This document shows, piece after piece, positions 40,301-46,300 of a DNA stretch of 64,000 nt (position 1 is the first letter of the stretch; every line of letters starts with the position of its first letter). Source of the DNA: Podarcis pityusensis (Eukaryota); NCBI GenBank assembly GCA_964106645.2, contig OZ067041.1. One strand, written 5' to 3'. A program made the position numbers.

Positions 40301-43300
40301 CCAATTTCCTCACTTCTCCCAAGATAAGCAGAGTTTAAGACATAACAAGATGGGTCAGTCTCTGTTGCTTTGGAGTATTTGGAGTCTGCCAAGCCATAGG
40401 CAAGTGCTATCTTATTCCCAAGTGTTACCTATGCAGATGTTTCAAAGTGACCTGCTTTGCTCCAGCAATTATGTAGCACAACTGTGCAGTCCAGATACAG
40501 CTTCCAGATGGGCATGTTGAGATCCTTTTCTGCTATTAAATATGGACCATTTCTGATTATCAGCCAACACCGTTGTGAAAGATGTTGTGAAATCTGCAAG
40601 CAAGGAAAACCTGGCGGAAGACATCTTCCAAATACAAGCAAAGTCAATAAAACCTGAGTTCCGTAAACTTCTCTGCAAAATCAGTCACCATAGCTATCAA
40701 ATTATATTTTGATAGGTTTGAATTATTTATTTCATTTATTAAATTTGTATAGAACCCTTCCTCCAAAGATCACAGGGCGGTTCACAACATTAAAGTGCAA
40801 AATGCAAACACATACCCCAAGTTTGAGATTTATAATTCTATTTAAAAAAAGCTTTAGATTCCATGTATATATTTTCACGATCGATAACACGCATAAATCT
40901 TCATGGTAACCTTTGAAACCAGACATGAGGAAGCTGTGGTCCTCCAGAGGTCGGGACTCCCAACACCCATCAGCCCCGGTTAGTGTGCCAGTGGTCAGAG
41001 ATAATGGGAGTTGGTAGTCCAAATTTTGCAGGGTCACAGATTCCTCATACTTGCTATAATCAGATGGTTCATATCTACCTGGAATCAAAACTGGGAAGCT
41101 CTGTTGACATAATGGATGAAGATGGAAACTAAGATGGGGGCTTCTGATTAGAACCATTAAAATAAATAAATACTCAAACTGAACAGCATGGAATTTTGCT
41201 TTCATGAACAGTTTTTTCTGCTTTAGTAATCTTATTTTGGAAAATGTCTGAGCACTTTGAGACTAAGTAAGTGAACTTGATAGGTGCATGGTGTATGGAA
41301 AAAAAGGATATAATGATGTCAGTGTCCCCTTATTCCTATGCTAGGAATTGGGGAGGTTCCTTTATCACTCATTCGCTCCACTAAGATGCATTTTCTCCAT
41401 AAAGACAGATTTGCACATAAAGACCCCAATTCAGGTAAAGTTAGTTACATTATGTTCCCTTTAAACGAAGAGGAAACCAGCAGGCTCCTTTACAGAAGCT
41501 GATGGAGAAGCTTCTCGACTCGTAGTTGAAAACTATTTATTCAAATTTCTGTCATATATTACAATTGGAACTTGTAAAAAAACAACACACCTTTCAGTAT
41601 GGACAACTCCCTGTTTTGGATTCCAGTTGCTTTTGTTCATTCCCATTCTCCTCAGTTTTCTGCCCCCCCCCAAAAAAAATTCCAAGCCCACTAAACATGC
41701 TGGGGTTTTTGGGGGAAATTTTCCTCTGAAATAATTCCTTTACTTCTGGAAACCTCAAAAGTTCCCGAAGCCCCCCAATATTCTTGTGCATGGCATTTTG
41801 ACAACAATAGGACTGTCATTCACAGTAGGAACATCAGATACAGGGGGAATGATAGCAGAATTTAGGCTAGGTTGCCATATACGGTAGTCTCCCCTCATTC
41901 TATTACCGTATTTTTCCGTGTATAAGACAATATTTTCCACAAACTTTTTAAGTTTAAGATCGGGGGTCATCTTATACAGTGGTATCTCCGGTTACAAACG
42001 GGATCTGTTCCGGAGGCCCAGCTGTATCCCAAAGATTTCGTAACTGGAGGACCGCTTCTGCACACACGCGAGCGGCAAACCCATTTCCGGATTTGCTGCG
42101 TTCACAACCCGAAGATTACATTACCCGAAGGTAATGTAACCCGAGGGTCCACTGTACACGGAATGTTGCAATTAAATATATAAATAAATATGTGCCACCA
42201 TCCATATTCTTTCCCCCCAGCCTCCCCTCACTGTTGGCCTCATGAAAAAACCCTGGTCTGGTACTCCCCAAAGCAGCCCCCACTCTGGACATTGTCCCTT
42301 CCACCCAGTTCCCTCAGCCGCCCCCTGGCTACCCAGACCCCCCCATTCCCCAAATGCACTCAGGCAGCTCTGGCAGTCGGAGATCCTCACAGCGGGAGAA
42401 ATCCGCTCCGGCGCGTGGGGCGGGGTGAGCCACCCATAGGGGCGGGGTGCACTGCGGGGCCTCCGGAGTCTGCCTGCCTCCTCCCACTCAACTGTTAGAT
42501 TTCTGTTATGCTACTGTGCAGTTTTTGGAGTCACAAGACTCTGTTTACATTCCAGACTGCTGGAAGTCTCACGGGATGTGGGAGACGGATGTTGATGTTA
42601 CTGGTTTCCTGTTTCTTTGTGCTAGTTGTTCACTGCCTCTCACAAAGAGCAGATGCATATTTTTTTTCTGTCCTGCGTAGTTAGAAATAAACGTAGCGAT
42701 GTAGCACATGTTTTTCTTTCCTTCTGCTGCTGTTTGGATACTCTGCGTAATGGGAGCATGCCTGAAGCCTCATCAAAGGCTTAGGTCGTAAATCACCGTC
42801 AGAGCAGAGGTCGATGGATTCCGAAGATACGACGAGGAGGAGAGCTATTACAGCTCGGTCGTATGCAAGTTCTGACATTAACCACCCTACAGCTGGGGGG
42901 GGGGAGGCAGCGGGCGGACTGTTTGGGCCCAAGGGGCAGAGTGCAGTTCGCTCCCCTGGATGTTTGAGAGTGGAGCAGAAAAATGCAATTTGATTTCTGC
43001 AGCATACAAATTCCCTCTTAAAGGGTTCTTTAACTATGATTCTTGTATTGCGGCACCGACCAGTTCCCGGCTGTCGGGGACACGCTCTCATTCCAGCTCA
43101 GCTGCCCAGCTCCGCGTCAGTGCCGCCGCCGCTCCAGTTCTTATACTGCATGTTATAATAATGCTGACTAGCCCAAATATAATAATAAAATTACTTAGTG
43201 TAATTACGATACTAATGTTGTTCTGTTTGATGTTTAAATATATGGTACTAAATATAACGGTGTTTTCAATATTTAATAAAATATCAAAGTTGTTCAGTTT

Positions 43301-46300
43301 GGTGTTTAAAATATTTATTTCTTAATTTTGGGCTCAAAAAATAGGGGCCGTCTTATACATGGGGGCGTCTTATACAAGGAAAAATACGGCATTTAAGCAC
43401 CTCCTTTCCCCAAAAAATAAATACAATAAATTGCAATCATATTATACGCGACAATTTTGGAGAAAAGCCCACAGAACTCTTTCCAGAAAACATGCATTGG
43501 ATTGCATCATCAGCGTAGCAGAGCAAACTACACTGTAATGCTAAATGTGTTTCTTTGTGTGATTCTTTTGAGAAATGCAAACAGCAGCTGCAGGAGCCCC
43601 AATCAGGACTGAGATGGGGCTGTTTAACCCTTTCTCCCCTGCCATTAAAGGTAAAGGGACCACTGACCATTAGGTCCAGTCGTGGCCGACTCTGGGGTTG
43701 CGGCGCTCATCTCGCTTTATTGGCCGAGGGAGCCGGCGTACAGCTTCCAGGTCATGTGGCCAGCATGACTAATCCACTTCTGGGGAACCAGAGCAGCGCA
43801 CGGAAACGCTGTTTACCTTTCCGCCGGAGTGGTACCTATTGATCTACTTGCACTTTGACATTACCCTAATAAAAAATCCACTTCTCAATGCTGCCCTTTG
43901 TACTGGCAGGGGAGAAACATCACAGCGCATGGCCCTAAGAGTCTGAGATGTGAACCTGGAAGCCCTTGAAACAAATTTCACCTAGACCGTGAATTTATTA
44001 GGTAGTCTTAAACAACCCGTTATCACTCAACCTTCCTCAACCTACTGACCGACCCTATAAGAGTTGTAGGGATTAACATACGCAACATGAAAGCACTAAA
44101 TAATAAATGATACATATCAATATCTTTTACACAGTATCCAATCATCTCCATAGCTGAGCAAGGTAAGAGCCATTTAAAAACTGGGTGAATTTGAATATTT
44201 TATCACCGTACAAAGGCGCCGTGTTAATTAAAGTCACATATTGCTCTTCTGCAGCATGCCTTCATCAGCGCAGAAACACAGAGGCTTCTAAAATGCCAGT
44301 TTCAGAGACCATCAGGGTTATATTCTGAGTGGCACGTTTCTAAACAGTTAATCACTGATTTGAATATATGTCAACACATTCTGCTGGAGTGCTATAAAAC
44401 GTGTCAACAGCAAAAAGAAAAAAATAAGAAAAAAATTGGTGACACACTTGGGACACAGAGTTTTTGTGCTGACACACCGTAATATAATTTTTTTTGAAAA
44501 AAATATCATCTGTTTAGCTATAAGCAACAATTAATCTTTTCAGTCATAAATACAGTGTTTTAAATAACACCTACAGAAGCAAAAACACACCCAAAGTGCT
44601 ATTTAATCTTACTTTCATTGCCTTTCTGGCCCTGCCGATTTAAAAATTCCTAAAATGCAGCACGCAATAAATTTTGCAATTAGGAGAAAAACGTGAGCTA
44701 TCAATATTTATTTCCCCTTTCCTCAGTTAATAAAATTACTTAACTCTAAACCTCTAAGTGAAAAGAAATCCTGGGAGCACTGCAAGCCTCAGAGGATTAA
44801 TTTCGCTTCCATGAAATGACATTTTATTCCCGAATCATTTAACCTCTGACTTTTCATAACTAGACATTCAGCCCTTGAACTATGATTTAGTGACGAGACT
44901 CAAAGGTGGCAGAACAGTCCTGTCATGTATGTGATATTAACAGCTTTCTCTTCCACCTCCCCACGCAAGTTGATGATGAAGACCTGATGGCTGAAACTTA
45001 GTTTTTAATTATTTTTTAAGGAAAGTTTTTTACATCCCACAATGGATTATTGGAATTTCCTTGTAGAATCAGCTTATTGGAACCCTAAAATATGCACAAA
45101 TTACATCTGCACATGTTTGTTGTCCCATTACTGTTACACCGCTCCCTTTCTTTCATCTTCTCCCTGTGCTATAGTCAATGTTTTGGGGCTGGGGCCTGTC
45201 CTTCTTAAATTTCATTTTGCTTGCCTTACTCGGTGAAGTGCCATAGGCATGGATAACCCTATATAAATACTAAATAATTCTTGTTCTGTTTTAACAAGGG
45301 TAAAAGAAATATGTAAAACACAACACAACAACGGTGCAAAATCATCCGCATTCATTGGTCAGCACCACTTATTTAACCACTAAAAACGCAAAAAACACAT
45401 CAACCCAATCAGCTAGGAAAATACATCATCATTCACCTTGGGGTCTCTAATTTCAGTGGCGCCAAAATTCAGGTTCCCCACGGCCTGTCTCGCTTCATTT
45501 TAAATACAGTGGTTGCGGGCAGGATCCGTTCCAGAGCTCCGGTCGGATCCCGAGGTTTCTGTAACCGGAAGGACTACTTCTGCGCATGCGGCAAAACACT
45601 TCCGGGTTTGCCGCTTTCGCAACCCAAATTTTACGTTACCCGAGGTGCTACTGTAATAGTTGCAGCACCCCCTAAAGCTCCGCGTCCAGTGCAACCGAAC
45701 CACGAAATCCACCTCTGTATCATGTGACTATTTCAGTCATCAATGTTTGATTTCCCTTGGCAGAACACACATAAAATGCCCTGAACCGATTAGTCAGGTT
45801 GATTTGTCAATCTCTTATCCCGCCCGCTTTAACACTGGTTTGTATCCAAAAGCAGGCCCTCCAAGTGTCCCTATATTTCAGGGACAGTCCCAGATTTACA
45901 GACGACGTCCTGGTTTCTGATCTGATCCCGGAACGTCCTGCATTTCCTTAGGACGTCCCTATTTTCACTGGAGAAACGTTGGAGGGTATGGAGTTATGCA
46001 ACCTCCGGGCCAAGAAGGTAAATTCTCTGTATAGTTTTATTATGTTTTTATGTATGTTAGAAGCCACCCAGAGTGGCTGGGGCAATCCAGTCAGTTGGGC
46101 GGGGTATAAATAATGAAATTATTATGATTAGGGTTATAGAATAGGACAACCCTATTTTCCTTGGAGAAATCTTGGGAGGGTGTGCGAAAGTGGTTTTGCC
46201 TTAGCAGTAAGTGTTTTAAGGCACCTATTTTTCACTGATCTGGCCCTATAGCCACCTGTGCTATTATCCTGTTTTGACAGTTCCTTGAGCTTCAGGGGCA

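What the first reader, a model, noticed from the sequence alone, without database searches (positions are those of the whole stretch)
41906..43389. Pack-type Tc2 transposon that appears to carry ~1 kb of captured host DNA
Seen: matching TIRs and coherent left (41906-42170) and right (about 43200-43389) arms, like the 490-bp Tc2 MITE at 49974. Between them lies about 1 kb with no recognisable transposase. It is a mosaic: a GC-rich promoter-like block (42190-42480), an AT/T-rich block, a CpG-rich block (42740-43140), then an AT-rich arm. CpGs are far denser than in the surrounding intron. Established: TIR elements can capture host sequence (Pack-MULE/Pack-TIR behaviour). Inference: this element moved regulatory DNA from another locus into the CLYBL intron, which may belong to the ZIC5/ZIC2 regulatory landscape.
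Basis: partly seen in the sequence, partly recalled or inferred. Interest (0 to 1): 0.72.

Follow-up and report, generated by a model that had tools for sequence, protein, structure and literature searches.

The report
Non-autonomous DNA transposon, cargo origin unproven
This is one defective cut-and-paste transposon about 1.5 kb long, with a smaller transposon nested in its left end, that carries about 0.95 kb of non-coding filling of unknown origin; this is ordinary for reptile genomes, and nothing shows that the filling is host regulatory DNA.

Summary
The terminal inverted repeats are real: 41906-41928 and 43367-43389 match at 22 of 23 positions, against 0 expected by chance. GC and CpG content jump exactly at these ends, so 41906-43389 is best read as one inserted element. 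It has no transposase, RNA-family or tRNA signal.

Only 71 bp belong to the element. Positions 41977-42154 are a separate TA-flanked MITE that splits an inner copy of the repeat.

High CpG density does not mark regulatory DNA. The core has 4.0 CpG per 100 bp, while SINE-like and MITE copies in the window have 2.5-8.8. The "promoter-like" block has CpG o/e 0.39.

One external relative of the filling turned up. Two blocks of the core, in the same order and on the same strand, match the abnormal C-terminal tail of an unnamed shisa-like gene model. That could be another transposon copy or a parental locus; the tools cannot tell which.

No lizard genome was available, so copy number, parental locus and empty site stay untested. 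My verdict is an ordinary non-autonomous TA-type element. Host capture is unproven and the "Tc2" label is untested.

The parts
41904..41905 (.). TA immediately left of the element. It is the putative target-site duplication; its partner at 43390-43391 reads CA.
41906..41928 (+). Left terminal inverted repeat, 23 nt.
   Evidence: I1, 96% complementary; 0 of 100 shuffles gave any match
41906..41976 (+). The element's own left arm, 71 bp: the terminal repeat, a ~40-nt spacer, and the first half of an inner inverted copy of the repeat (41970-41976).
41977..42154 (+). Nested 178-bp MITE of another family (CAGTGG...CCACTG ends). TA lies on both sides (41975-6 and 42155-6). It splits the inner repeat copy.
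   Evidence: (118 of 180 aligned columns identical to 45507-45653; both TA/TA)
42157..42194 (+). The left arm resumes. 42157-42163 complete the 14-nt exact inverted copy of the terminal repeat, followed by an AT-rich stretch.
   Evidence: (GC 0.19 for 42158-42189)
42195..42492 (-). GC-rich block of the core (GC 0.64, CpG o/e 0.39) with two GGGGCGGGG boxes. 42418-42492 on the minus strand match residues 289-313 of gene model P0003 (20 of 25). A weak, frame-shifted continuation reaches about 42359.
42493..42879 (.). T-rich middle block, about 385 bp. It has no counterpart in P0003, so it is either an indel between copies or an intron of that gene model.
   Evidence: boundaries read
42880..43135 (-). 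CpG-rich block of the core. 42880-42927 on the minus strand match P0003 residues 275-289 (12 of 16), directly before the other match in the protein.
   Evidence: pairwise E 0.003
43136..43389 (+). Right arm (GC 0.28). It contains a further TCTTATAC motif at 43139, direct repeats at 43214-43243 and 43286-43314, two tandem 17-mers at 43344-43376, and the right terminal repeat at 43367-43389.
49974..50463 (+). 490-bp relative with a different interior. Its right end shares 20 of 23 positions with the left terminal repeat. It has the same two-site layout in both arms, and its flanks read CA and TA.
45507..45653 (+). 147-bp relative of the nested MITE, flanked by TA on both sides.
10891..11080 (-). 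Internal CLYBL exon, for context. It has an acceptor (ttttttacag) and a donor (gtaagc) and no start codon, so the element lies 31 kb upstream of it.
   Evidence: E 3.2e-19 to PDB 5vxc, citrate lyase subunit beta-like protein

Best explanation
41906-43389 is a single non-autonomous cut-and-paste DNA transposon of the TA-targeting TIR type (the Tc1/mariner-pogo group in the broad sense). It is about 1.3 kb of its own sequence plus a 178-bp MITE that later inserted into its left arm.

It encodes nothing. It would have been moved in trans by a transposase that recognises the 23-nt terminal repeat and the inner copies of the same motif. The left end carries one inverted inner copy and the right end carries tandem direct copies. 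The 490-bp relative at 49974 has the same layout.

The ~0.95-kb core is non-coding filling that arrived with the element. Its ultimate origin is unknown. Most likely it is the family-specific interior of a non-autonomous family with other copies elsewhere, one of them probably annotated as the tail of a shisa-like gene model.

The nested MITE breaks one putative transposase-binding site, so this copy may no longer be mobile. Shown here: the ends, the nesting, the absence of coding capacity, the composition break, and one outside relative. Inferred: trans-mobilisation, multi-copy status and loss of mobility.
For: Ends and family:
- The terminal repeats match at 22 of 23 positions, with 0 matches expected by chance.
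- All 5 TCTTATAC motifs in the 64 kb lie within the element.
- The four ends of this element and of the 490-bp relative align. They share the asymmetric arm layout.

Foreign interior:
- GC and CpG jump at the ends. The core has GC 0.545 and o/e 0.55; the rest of the window has GC 0.41 and o/e 0.26; the left flank has o/e 0.20.

No function-bearing signal inside:
- 0 of 15 interior ORFs hit a Pfam family at E<0.01.
- There were 0 Rfam hits at E<=1 and 0 tRNAs.
- 3 of 3 word-indexed protein searches with interior ORFs found nothing.

Nesting:
- The nested MITE has TA on both sides and a relative at 45507-45653.
- It splits a 14-nt exact inner copy of the terminal repeat.

Outside relative:
- P0003 gives a 52-bit match, reached by 0 of 200 shuffles (best shuffle 29.6).
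- A second, collinear block on the same strand matches at pairwise E 0.003.

Literature (passages read): in Anolis, 57 of 67 DNA-transposon families are non-autonomous. All 17 non-autonomous Tc1/mariner families share nothing with the autonomous family. Incorporation of extraneous DNA is described as frequent (PMC3014272).
Against: - Only one flank is TA; the other reads CA. The TA target duplication that defines the group is therefore only half seen. The 490-bp relative shows the same pattern (CA/TA).
- No second copy of the core exists in the window. blastn at E<=0.01 and nhmmer at E<=10 both found nothing.
- Only 1 real relative appeared among 1.84 billion protein representatives, so multi-copy status is not shown.
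- No autonomous partner with these ends is in the window. The pogo-type DDE_1 relic at 23604-24203 has no matching end repeat within 3 mismatches.
- The power of the protein searches to see non-coding lizard repeats was not calibrated with a control.
Confidence: 0.68

Rival explanations
1. Pack-type capture. The core is host DNA picked up by a short TIR element, for example when two neighbouring insertions were mobilised together. The parental locus would be the 3' region of a shisa-like gene, represented by the tail of P0003.
For: - Two blocks of the core match P0003 residues 275-313 in the same order and on the same strand.
- By the loosest operational rule for Pack-TYPE elements, the element would nominally qualify. 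That rule asks for no transposase hit plus a BLAST hit longer than 50 bp to a coding sequence (PMC8903248, passages read).
- Capture of extraneous DNA by lizard non-autonomous elements is documented for hobo_AC (PMC3014272).
Against: - The matched part of P0003 lies beyond the usual length of shisa-like proteins. P0003 has 344 aa, while the nearest named Atlas cluster has 188 aa.
- Only residues 43-84 of P0003 resemble Shisa_N, and that match is below Pfam's cut-off (16 bits against 22).
- The tail is P/G/R-rich and poorly modelled (pLDDT 0.41). This is what a repeat copy swallowed by a gene model looks like.
- PMC8903248 itself reports that such elements are often wrongly annotated as genes in reference annotations.
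- The apparent plus-strand match to P0003's coding part (30 bits) disappears with composition correction (E 0.74).
Confidence: 0.14
2. An internally deleted or rearranged derivative of an autonomous element. On this reading the core comes from the non-coding or decayed parts of the parent transposon.
For: Most non-autonomous hAT and all Helitron families in Anolis arise this way (PMC3014272). The arms extend about 70 and 250 bp beyond the terminal repeats, with repeated motifs, as in autonomous elements.
Against: - 0 of 15 ORFs show any transposase domain.
- No similarity to the pogo-type relic in the window.
- None of the Anolis Tc1/mariner non-autonomous families resembles the autonomous family.
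Confidence: 0.1
3. Two independent insertions, or two half-elements, that happen to bracket native CLYBL-region DNA. On this reading the interior is local sequence.
For: - The flanks are not a clean TA/TA pair.
- The published model for Pack-TYPE birth starts from exactly such a pair of nearby insertions (PMC8903248).
Against: - Only one left end and one right end are present, in the correct mutual orientation. There are no inner terminal repeats within 3 mismatches.
- The interior differs sharply from the surrounding DNA in GC and CpG content.
- A relative of the interior sits in an unrelated gene model.
Confidence: 0.05

Closest known systems
Non-autonomous Tc1/mariner families of Anolis carolinensis (TcMar-N1 to N17; Novick et al. 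2010, PMC3014272, passages read)
   Same: They have terminal inverted repeats and TA targets and no transposase. Their interiors are unrelated to any autonomous element. They are shorter than 2 kb. One family (TcMar-N4) is said to resemble a Tc2-related frog element.
   Different: The paper's supplements were not opened. This copy shows TA on one side only.
Pack-TYPE transposons of plants (Pack-MULE, Pack-CACTA, Pack-Mariner; PMC8903248 passages read; PMC6379663 seen as search listing and abstract only)
   Same: They are non-autonomous TIR elements with a non-transposase interior. Here one interior segment matches a predicted coding sequence.
   Different: Pack-TYPE elements are defined by a match to bona fide host genes and are studied as clustered, non-singleton families. 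Here the only match is to a dubious tail of an unnamed gene model, and no parental locus or second copy is shown. The passages I read concern plants only.
hobo_AC non-autonomous hAT elements of Anolis that carry filler DNA (PMC3014272)
   Same: A lizard precedent for TIR elements that incorporate extraneous DNA and nested transposons.
   Different: A different superfamily, with 8-bp duplications and YARNG ends. Those elements are 1.3-3.4 kb long, and their filler is often recognisable transposon sequence.

Membership tests
TA-targeting TIR transposons (Tc1/mariner-pogo group), non-autonomous | Terminal inverted repeats | tested here: met
   22 of 23 positions match; 0 of 100 shuffles gave any match
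TA-targeting TIR transposons (Tc1/mariner-pogo group), non-autonomous | TA target-site duplication on both sides | tested here: inconclusive
   TA on the left and CA on the right. The 490-bp relative has CA and TA. No longer duplication is visible.
TA-targeting TIR transposons (Tc1/mariner-pogo group), non-autonomous | Ends shared with other elements of the family | tested here: met
   The right end of the 490-bp element (50441-50463) shares 20 of 23 positions with the left terminal repeat. Both arms have the same layout.
TA-targeting TIR transposons (Tc1/mariner-pogo group), non-autonomous | An autonomous partner with the same ends that encodes a DDE/D transposase | not testable with these tools
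   None in the window. The DDE_1 relic at 23604-24203 has no matching end. No reptile genome or repeat library was available.
Tc2 clade specifically | Ends or transposase similar to Tc2 reference elements | not testable with these tools
Pack-TYPE transposon (operational definition of PMC8903248) | No significant match to a transposase | tested here: met
Pack-TYPE transposon (operational definition of PMC8903248) | Interior matches a genuine host gene | tested here: inconclusive
   The only match is 20 of 25 plus 12 of 16 residues to the atypical C-terminal tail of the unnamed model P0003. Whether that tail is real coding sequence is doubtful.
Pack-TYPE transposon (operational definition of PMC8903248) | A TIR-free parental locus, and membership of a non-singleton cluster | not testable with these tools
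   No source genome was available. Within the window the core occurs once.
CpG-island promoter (GC>0.5, o/e>0.6, 200 bp or more; criteria recalled) | The 'promoter-like' block 42190-42480 meets the criteria | tested here: not met
   GC 0.64 but o/e 0.39
CpG-island promoter (GC>0.5, o/e>0.6, 200 bp or more; criteria recalled) | Block 42740-43140 meets the criteria, and this separates it from repeats | tested here: inconclusive
   It meets them (GC 0.55, o/e 0.73). So do the 490-bp relative (o/e 0.72) and five SINE-like copies with o/e 0.76-0.87, so the criteria do not discriminate.

The most novel reading that the evidence does not exclude
The element is a genuine Pack-type TA-targeting transposon in an amniote. 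It picked up non-coding DNA from the 3' region of a shisa-like gene and carried it into the 5' part of CLYBL. The locus behind P0003 would be the TIR-free parent.
Probability: 0.1. Interest if true: 0.5.

Novelty: new member of a known kind. Interest (0 to 1): 0.17.

Why it matters
If the filling did come from a host gene region, this would be a concrete vertebrate example of a TA-type TIR element shuffling host DNA. That behaviour is documented in the plant papers I read, and for hAT elements in Anolis. As the evidence stands, this is a routine non-autonomous transposon copy with a nested MITE.

Its main use is as a caution. High CpG density and GC-rich blocks inside an intron mark repeat insertions here, not regulatory DNA.

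Tried and rejected
- Transposase remnant: Pfam found no transposase in 15 interior ORFs.
- Structured RNA or a tRNA-derived SINE inside the element: Rfam gave 0 hits and ARAGORN gave 0.
- Other copies of the core in the window: none by blastn with word size 7 or by nhmmer at E<=10.
- Protein-level relatives of three interior ORFs through the word-indexed search: 0 hits in 3 of 3 searches. One search did not even recover P0003, so these negatives are weak.
- P0002, the other hit, is a long tandem-repeat protein matched in 8 stretches. I set it aside as compositional.
- Plus-strand match of 42709-42954 to the transmembrane and cytoplasmic part of P0003 (30 bits; 0 of 200 shuffles reached 30.0, but the best reached 29.6). 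I rejected it after composition-corrected BLASTP gave E 0.74.
Two Atlas look-ups gave no taxon and no usable neighbour for the tail.
- Scan of bacterial and archaeal genome contigs with the degenerate end repeat, in the hope of host contamination. It gave 2 lone matches in bacterial contigs with no inverted partner, about the number expected by chance by my own estimate.
- CLYBL exon 1: not found. All 16 CpG-rich 500-bp windows overlap segments that mark as repeated. For 15 of them the segment is this element, one of the MITEs or the SINE-like family. The 16th (52751-53250) overlaps an unresolved repeat with an (ATT)n run.
- A literature search for TcMar-Tc2 in lizards gave 3 papers, none relevant.
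Full report
**What is at the coordinates**

The window holds no N, and the script machine held only the window, so no source genome was available. Positions 41906-41928 and 43367-43389 are inverted repeats of 23 nt that match at 22 positions. With up to 3 mismatches the 23-mer occurs three times in 64 kb: the two ends and 50441-50463. None of 100 dinucleotide shuffles gave any match.

The core motif TCTTATAC occurs 5 times in the window, and all 5 lie inside the element: 41920 on the minus strand, and 41970, 43139, 43351 and 43368 on the plus strand. 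The right arm ends in two tandem 17-mers. The flanking dinucleotides are TA on the left and CA on the right. A TA target duplication is therefore only half visible.

**The left arm is composite**

A self-comparison showed that 42001-42128 matches 45522-45643 (72% over 129 nt) and that 42137-42163 matches 9340-9314. Reading these places shows a second family of small elements with CAGTGG...CCACTG ends and TA on both sides.

- The copy inside our element runs from 41977 to 42154, which is 178 bp.
- The copy at 45507-45653 has 147 bp.
- The two share 118 of 180 aligned columns.
- Further ends of this kind lie at 9323 and at 25948-26200.

When 41977-42156 is taken out, 41970-41976 and 42157-42163 join into a 14-nt exact inverted copy of the left terminal repeat. 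The nested element therefore landed in the TA of an inner repeat copy. Only 71 bp, plus the short AT-rich stretch after 42157, belong to the left arm of the main element.

**One element or two arms?**

The four ends of this element and of the 490-bp element at 49974-50463 align. They share an asymmetric plan. The left end has the terminal repeat, a spacer and an inverted inner copy that stops short of the outermost bases. The right end has direct inner copies next to the terminal repeat.

The element thus has one proper left end and one proper right end in the correct orientation, with no inner terminal repeats. Composition also breaks at the ends.

| Region | GC | CpG o/e | CpG per 100 bp |
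|---|---|---|---|
| Core 42195-43135 | 0.545 | 0.55 | 4.04 |
| 1 kb to the left | | 0.20 | 0.80 |
| Window without the listed repeats | 0.41 | 0.26 | 1.09 |

Both facts favour a single inserted element whose interior arrived with it.

**What the interior is not**

- There are 37 stop-to-stop ORFs of 30 aa or more that overlap the element, the longest of 147 and 138 aa.
- I scanned 15 of them (60-147 aa) against Pfam. None hit a family at E<0.01. The four weak hits (E 0.047-0.89) are unrelated to transposases.
- Rfam gave nothing at E<=1. ARAGORN found no tRNA in the whole window.
- The core has no other copy in the window by blastn or by nhmmer at E<=10.

**CpG density is not evidence of regulatory DNA**

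However, the "promoter-like" block 42190-42480 has CpG o/e 0.39, close to the window's overall 0.32. The block 42740-43140 does reach o/e 0.73. The other repeat copies in the window reach similar or higher values.

| Repeat copy | CpG o/e | CpG per 100 bp |
|---|---|---|
| 490-bp relative | 0.72 | 5.5 |
| Nested MITE | 1.03 | 7.3 |
| MITE at 45507 | 1.11 | 8.8 |
| Five SINE-like copies | 0.76-0.87 | 6.0-7.6 |

All 16 CpG-rich 500-bp windows listed overlap sequence that mark as repeated. For 15 of them the sequence is this element, a MITE or the SINE-like family. One (52751-53250) overlaps an unresolved repeat. High CpG here marks interspersed repeats.

**A relative of the filling elsewhere**

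Three word-indexed protein searches with interior ORFs found nothing. The exhaustive search of 1.84 billion representatives with the 112-aa minus-strand ORF 42172-42510 gave two hits. P0002 is a tandem-repeat protein matched in 8 stretches, and I set it aside. P0003 (344 aa) is the informative hit.

- It matches 20 of 25 residues at 289-313, against window 42492-42418.
- That match scores 52 bits. In 200 shuffles of the core the best scores averaged 20.3 and never exceeded 29.6.
- Residues 275-289, directly before, match 42927-42880 on the same strand at 12 of 16. Pairwise BLASTP with composition correction gives E 0.003.
- Weak, frame-shifted continuations reach about 42359.

The roughly 385 bp between them (42493-42879) do not. 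That gap is either an indel between copies or an intron of the gene model.

P0003 is not encoded in this window. Its first 140 residues find only leucine runs here, and the tail is about 80% identical rather than 100%.

What P0003 is remains only partly clear.

- Residues 43-84 resemble Shisa_N, but below Pfam's cut-off (16 bits against 22).
- A named Atlas neighbour is "protein shisa-like-1", 188 aa, at rank 7 and score 0.78, which the tool rates as a lead only.
- The matched tail lies beyond that length, is P/G/R-rich and is poorly modelled (pLDDT 0.41).
The Atlas gave no taxon.

A plus-strand match to P0003's membrane-spanning part (30 bits) did not survive composition correction (E 0.74).

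The simplest reading is that a second copy of the same repeat was swallowed by a gene model. The alternative is that this locus is where the filling came from. Without the DNA I cannot exclude it.

**Context**

ORF 10639-11160 on the minus strand hits HpcH_HpaI. It also matches the PDB chain 5vxc, "citrate lyase subunit beta-like protein, mitochondrial", at E 3.2e-19. The exon proper is 10891-11080. It has a polypyrimidine tract and acceptor, a gtaagc donor and no start codon, so an upstream exon must exist at higher coordinates. I did not find it.

The element lies 31 kb upstream of this exon. It is therefore either in the first intron or upstream of the gene. I searched this exon on its own and built no joined spliced model.

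In the human map, as I recall it and not from any call, ZIC5 and ZIC2 lie beyond the 3' end of CLYBL. That is the far side from this site. The ZIC idea was not testable. I took no contig for human.

**Comparison with what is known**

In Anolis, 57 of 67 DNA-transposon families are non-autonomous. All 17 non-autonomous Tc1/mariner families share no similarity with the autonomous family. One resembles a Tc2-related frog element. Incorporation of extraneous DNA is called frequent (PMC3014272; passages read; supplements with consensus sequences not seen).

Pack-TYPE elements are operationally those TIR/TSD elements with no transposase hit and a BLAST hit to coding genes. Singletons are removed, and the authors report that such elements are often wrongly annotated as genes (PMC8903248; passages read).

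Under the loosest reading of that rule the P0003 match would tick the box. Given the nature of the tail, I do not accept it as a host gene match. A search for TcMar-Tc2 in lizards returned three irrelevant papers. The Tc2 label could not be tested, because no repeat library is at hand.

**Verdict**

This is an ordinary non-autonomous TA-type TIR transposon with a nested MITE (confidence about 0.68). Host capture is possible but unproven (about 0.14). An internally rearranged derivative of an autonomous element (about 0.10) and two independent insertions (about 0.05) are less likely.

The decisive tests are named under next steps and could not be run here: genome-wide copy census, the P0003 locus, the empty site and the autonomous partner.

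Noticed in passing
window 23604-24203 (+): A 200-aa open frame hits the pogo/Tigger-type DDE_1 endonuclease domain (E 1.2e-05, 25.5 bits, above the cut-off of 22). It also has a weak Tc5 HTH hit. This looks like a decayed pogo-like transposase relic in an ORF-dense stretch at 22.9-26.7 kb. No end repeat like that of the studied element lies nearby.
   Followed up: partly
window 11233-11555, 18323-18679, 43643-43859, 45853-46176, 46479-46839, 62886-63240: An interspersed repeat family of 220-360 bp, SINE-like by my reading, with 5 partners each in the self-comparison. The copy at 11.2-11.56 kb is bracketed by a 15-nt direct duplication (ttacccttggagtta). It sits about 150 bp upstream of the CLYBL exon's acceptor. 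Most copies are CpG-rich (o/e 0.76-0.87).
   Followed up: partly
window 9323-~9536, 25948-26200, 41977-42154, 45507-45653: At least four small TA-flanked elements have CAGTGG...CCACTG-type ends. Two subtypes are only about 65-72% alike. One is nested in the studied element, and another lies beside the pogo-like relic.
   Followed up: partly
window 10891-11080 (-): An internal coding exon of a CLYBL orthologue (E 3.2e-19 to PDB 5vxc). The upstream exon with the start codon was not found in the 53 kb to its right.
   Followed up: partly
window 52507-53205 (+) and 53085-53640: A 233-aa open frame with no Pfam hit lies in a GC-rich stretch that reads like another interspersed repeat. It is followed by several (ATT)n/(AAT)n runs.
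   Followed up: no
window 37475-37854 and 38220-38612: Two segments each have 5 partners in the self-comparison. They overlap or lie next to a 202-aa open frame (37498-38103) with no Pfam hit. They were not classified.
   Followed up: no
window 49972-49973 / 50464-50465 and 41904-41905 / 43390-43391: Both elements with the CCGTATTTTTC-type ends have one TA flank and one CA flank, on opposite sides. This may be coincidental decay of a TA duplication or a hint that the target rule is looser than TA.
   Followed up: no
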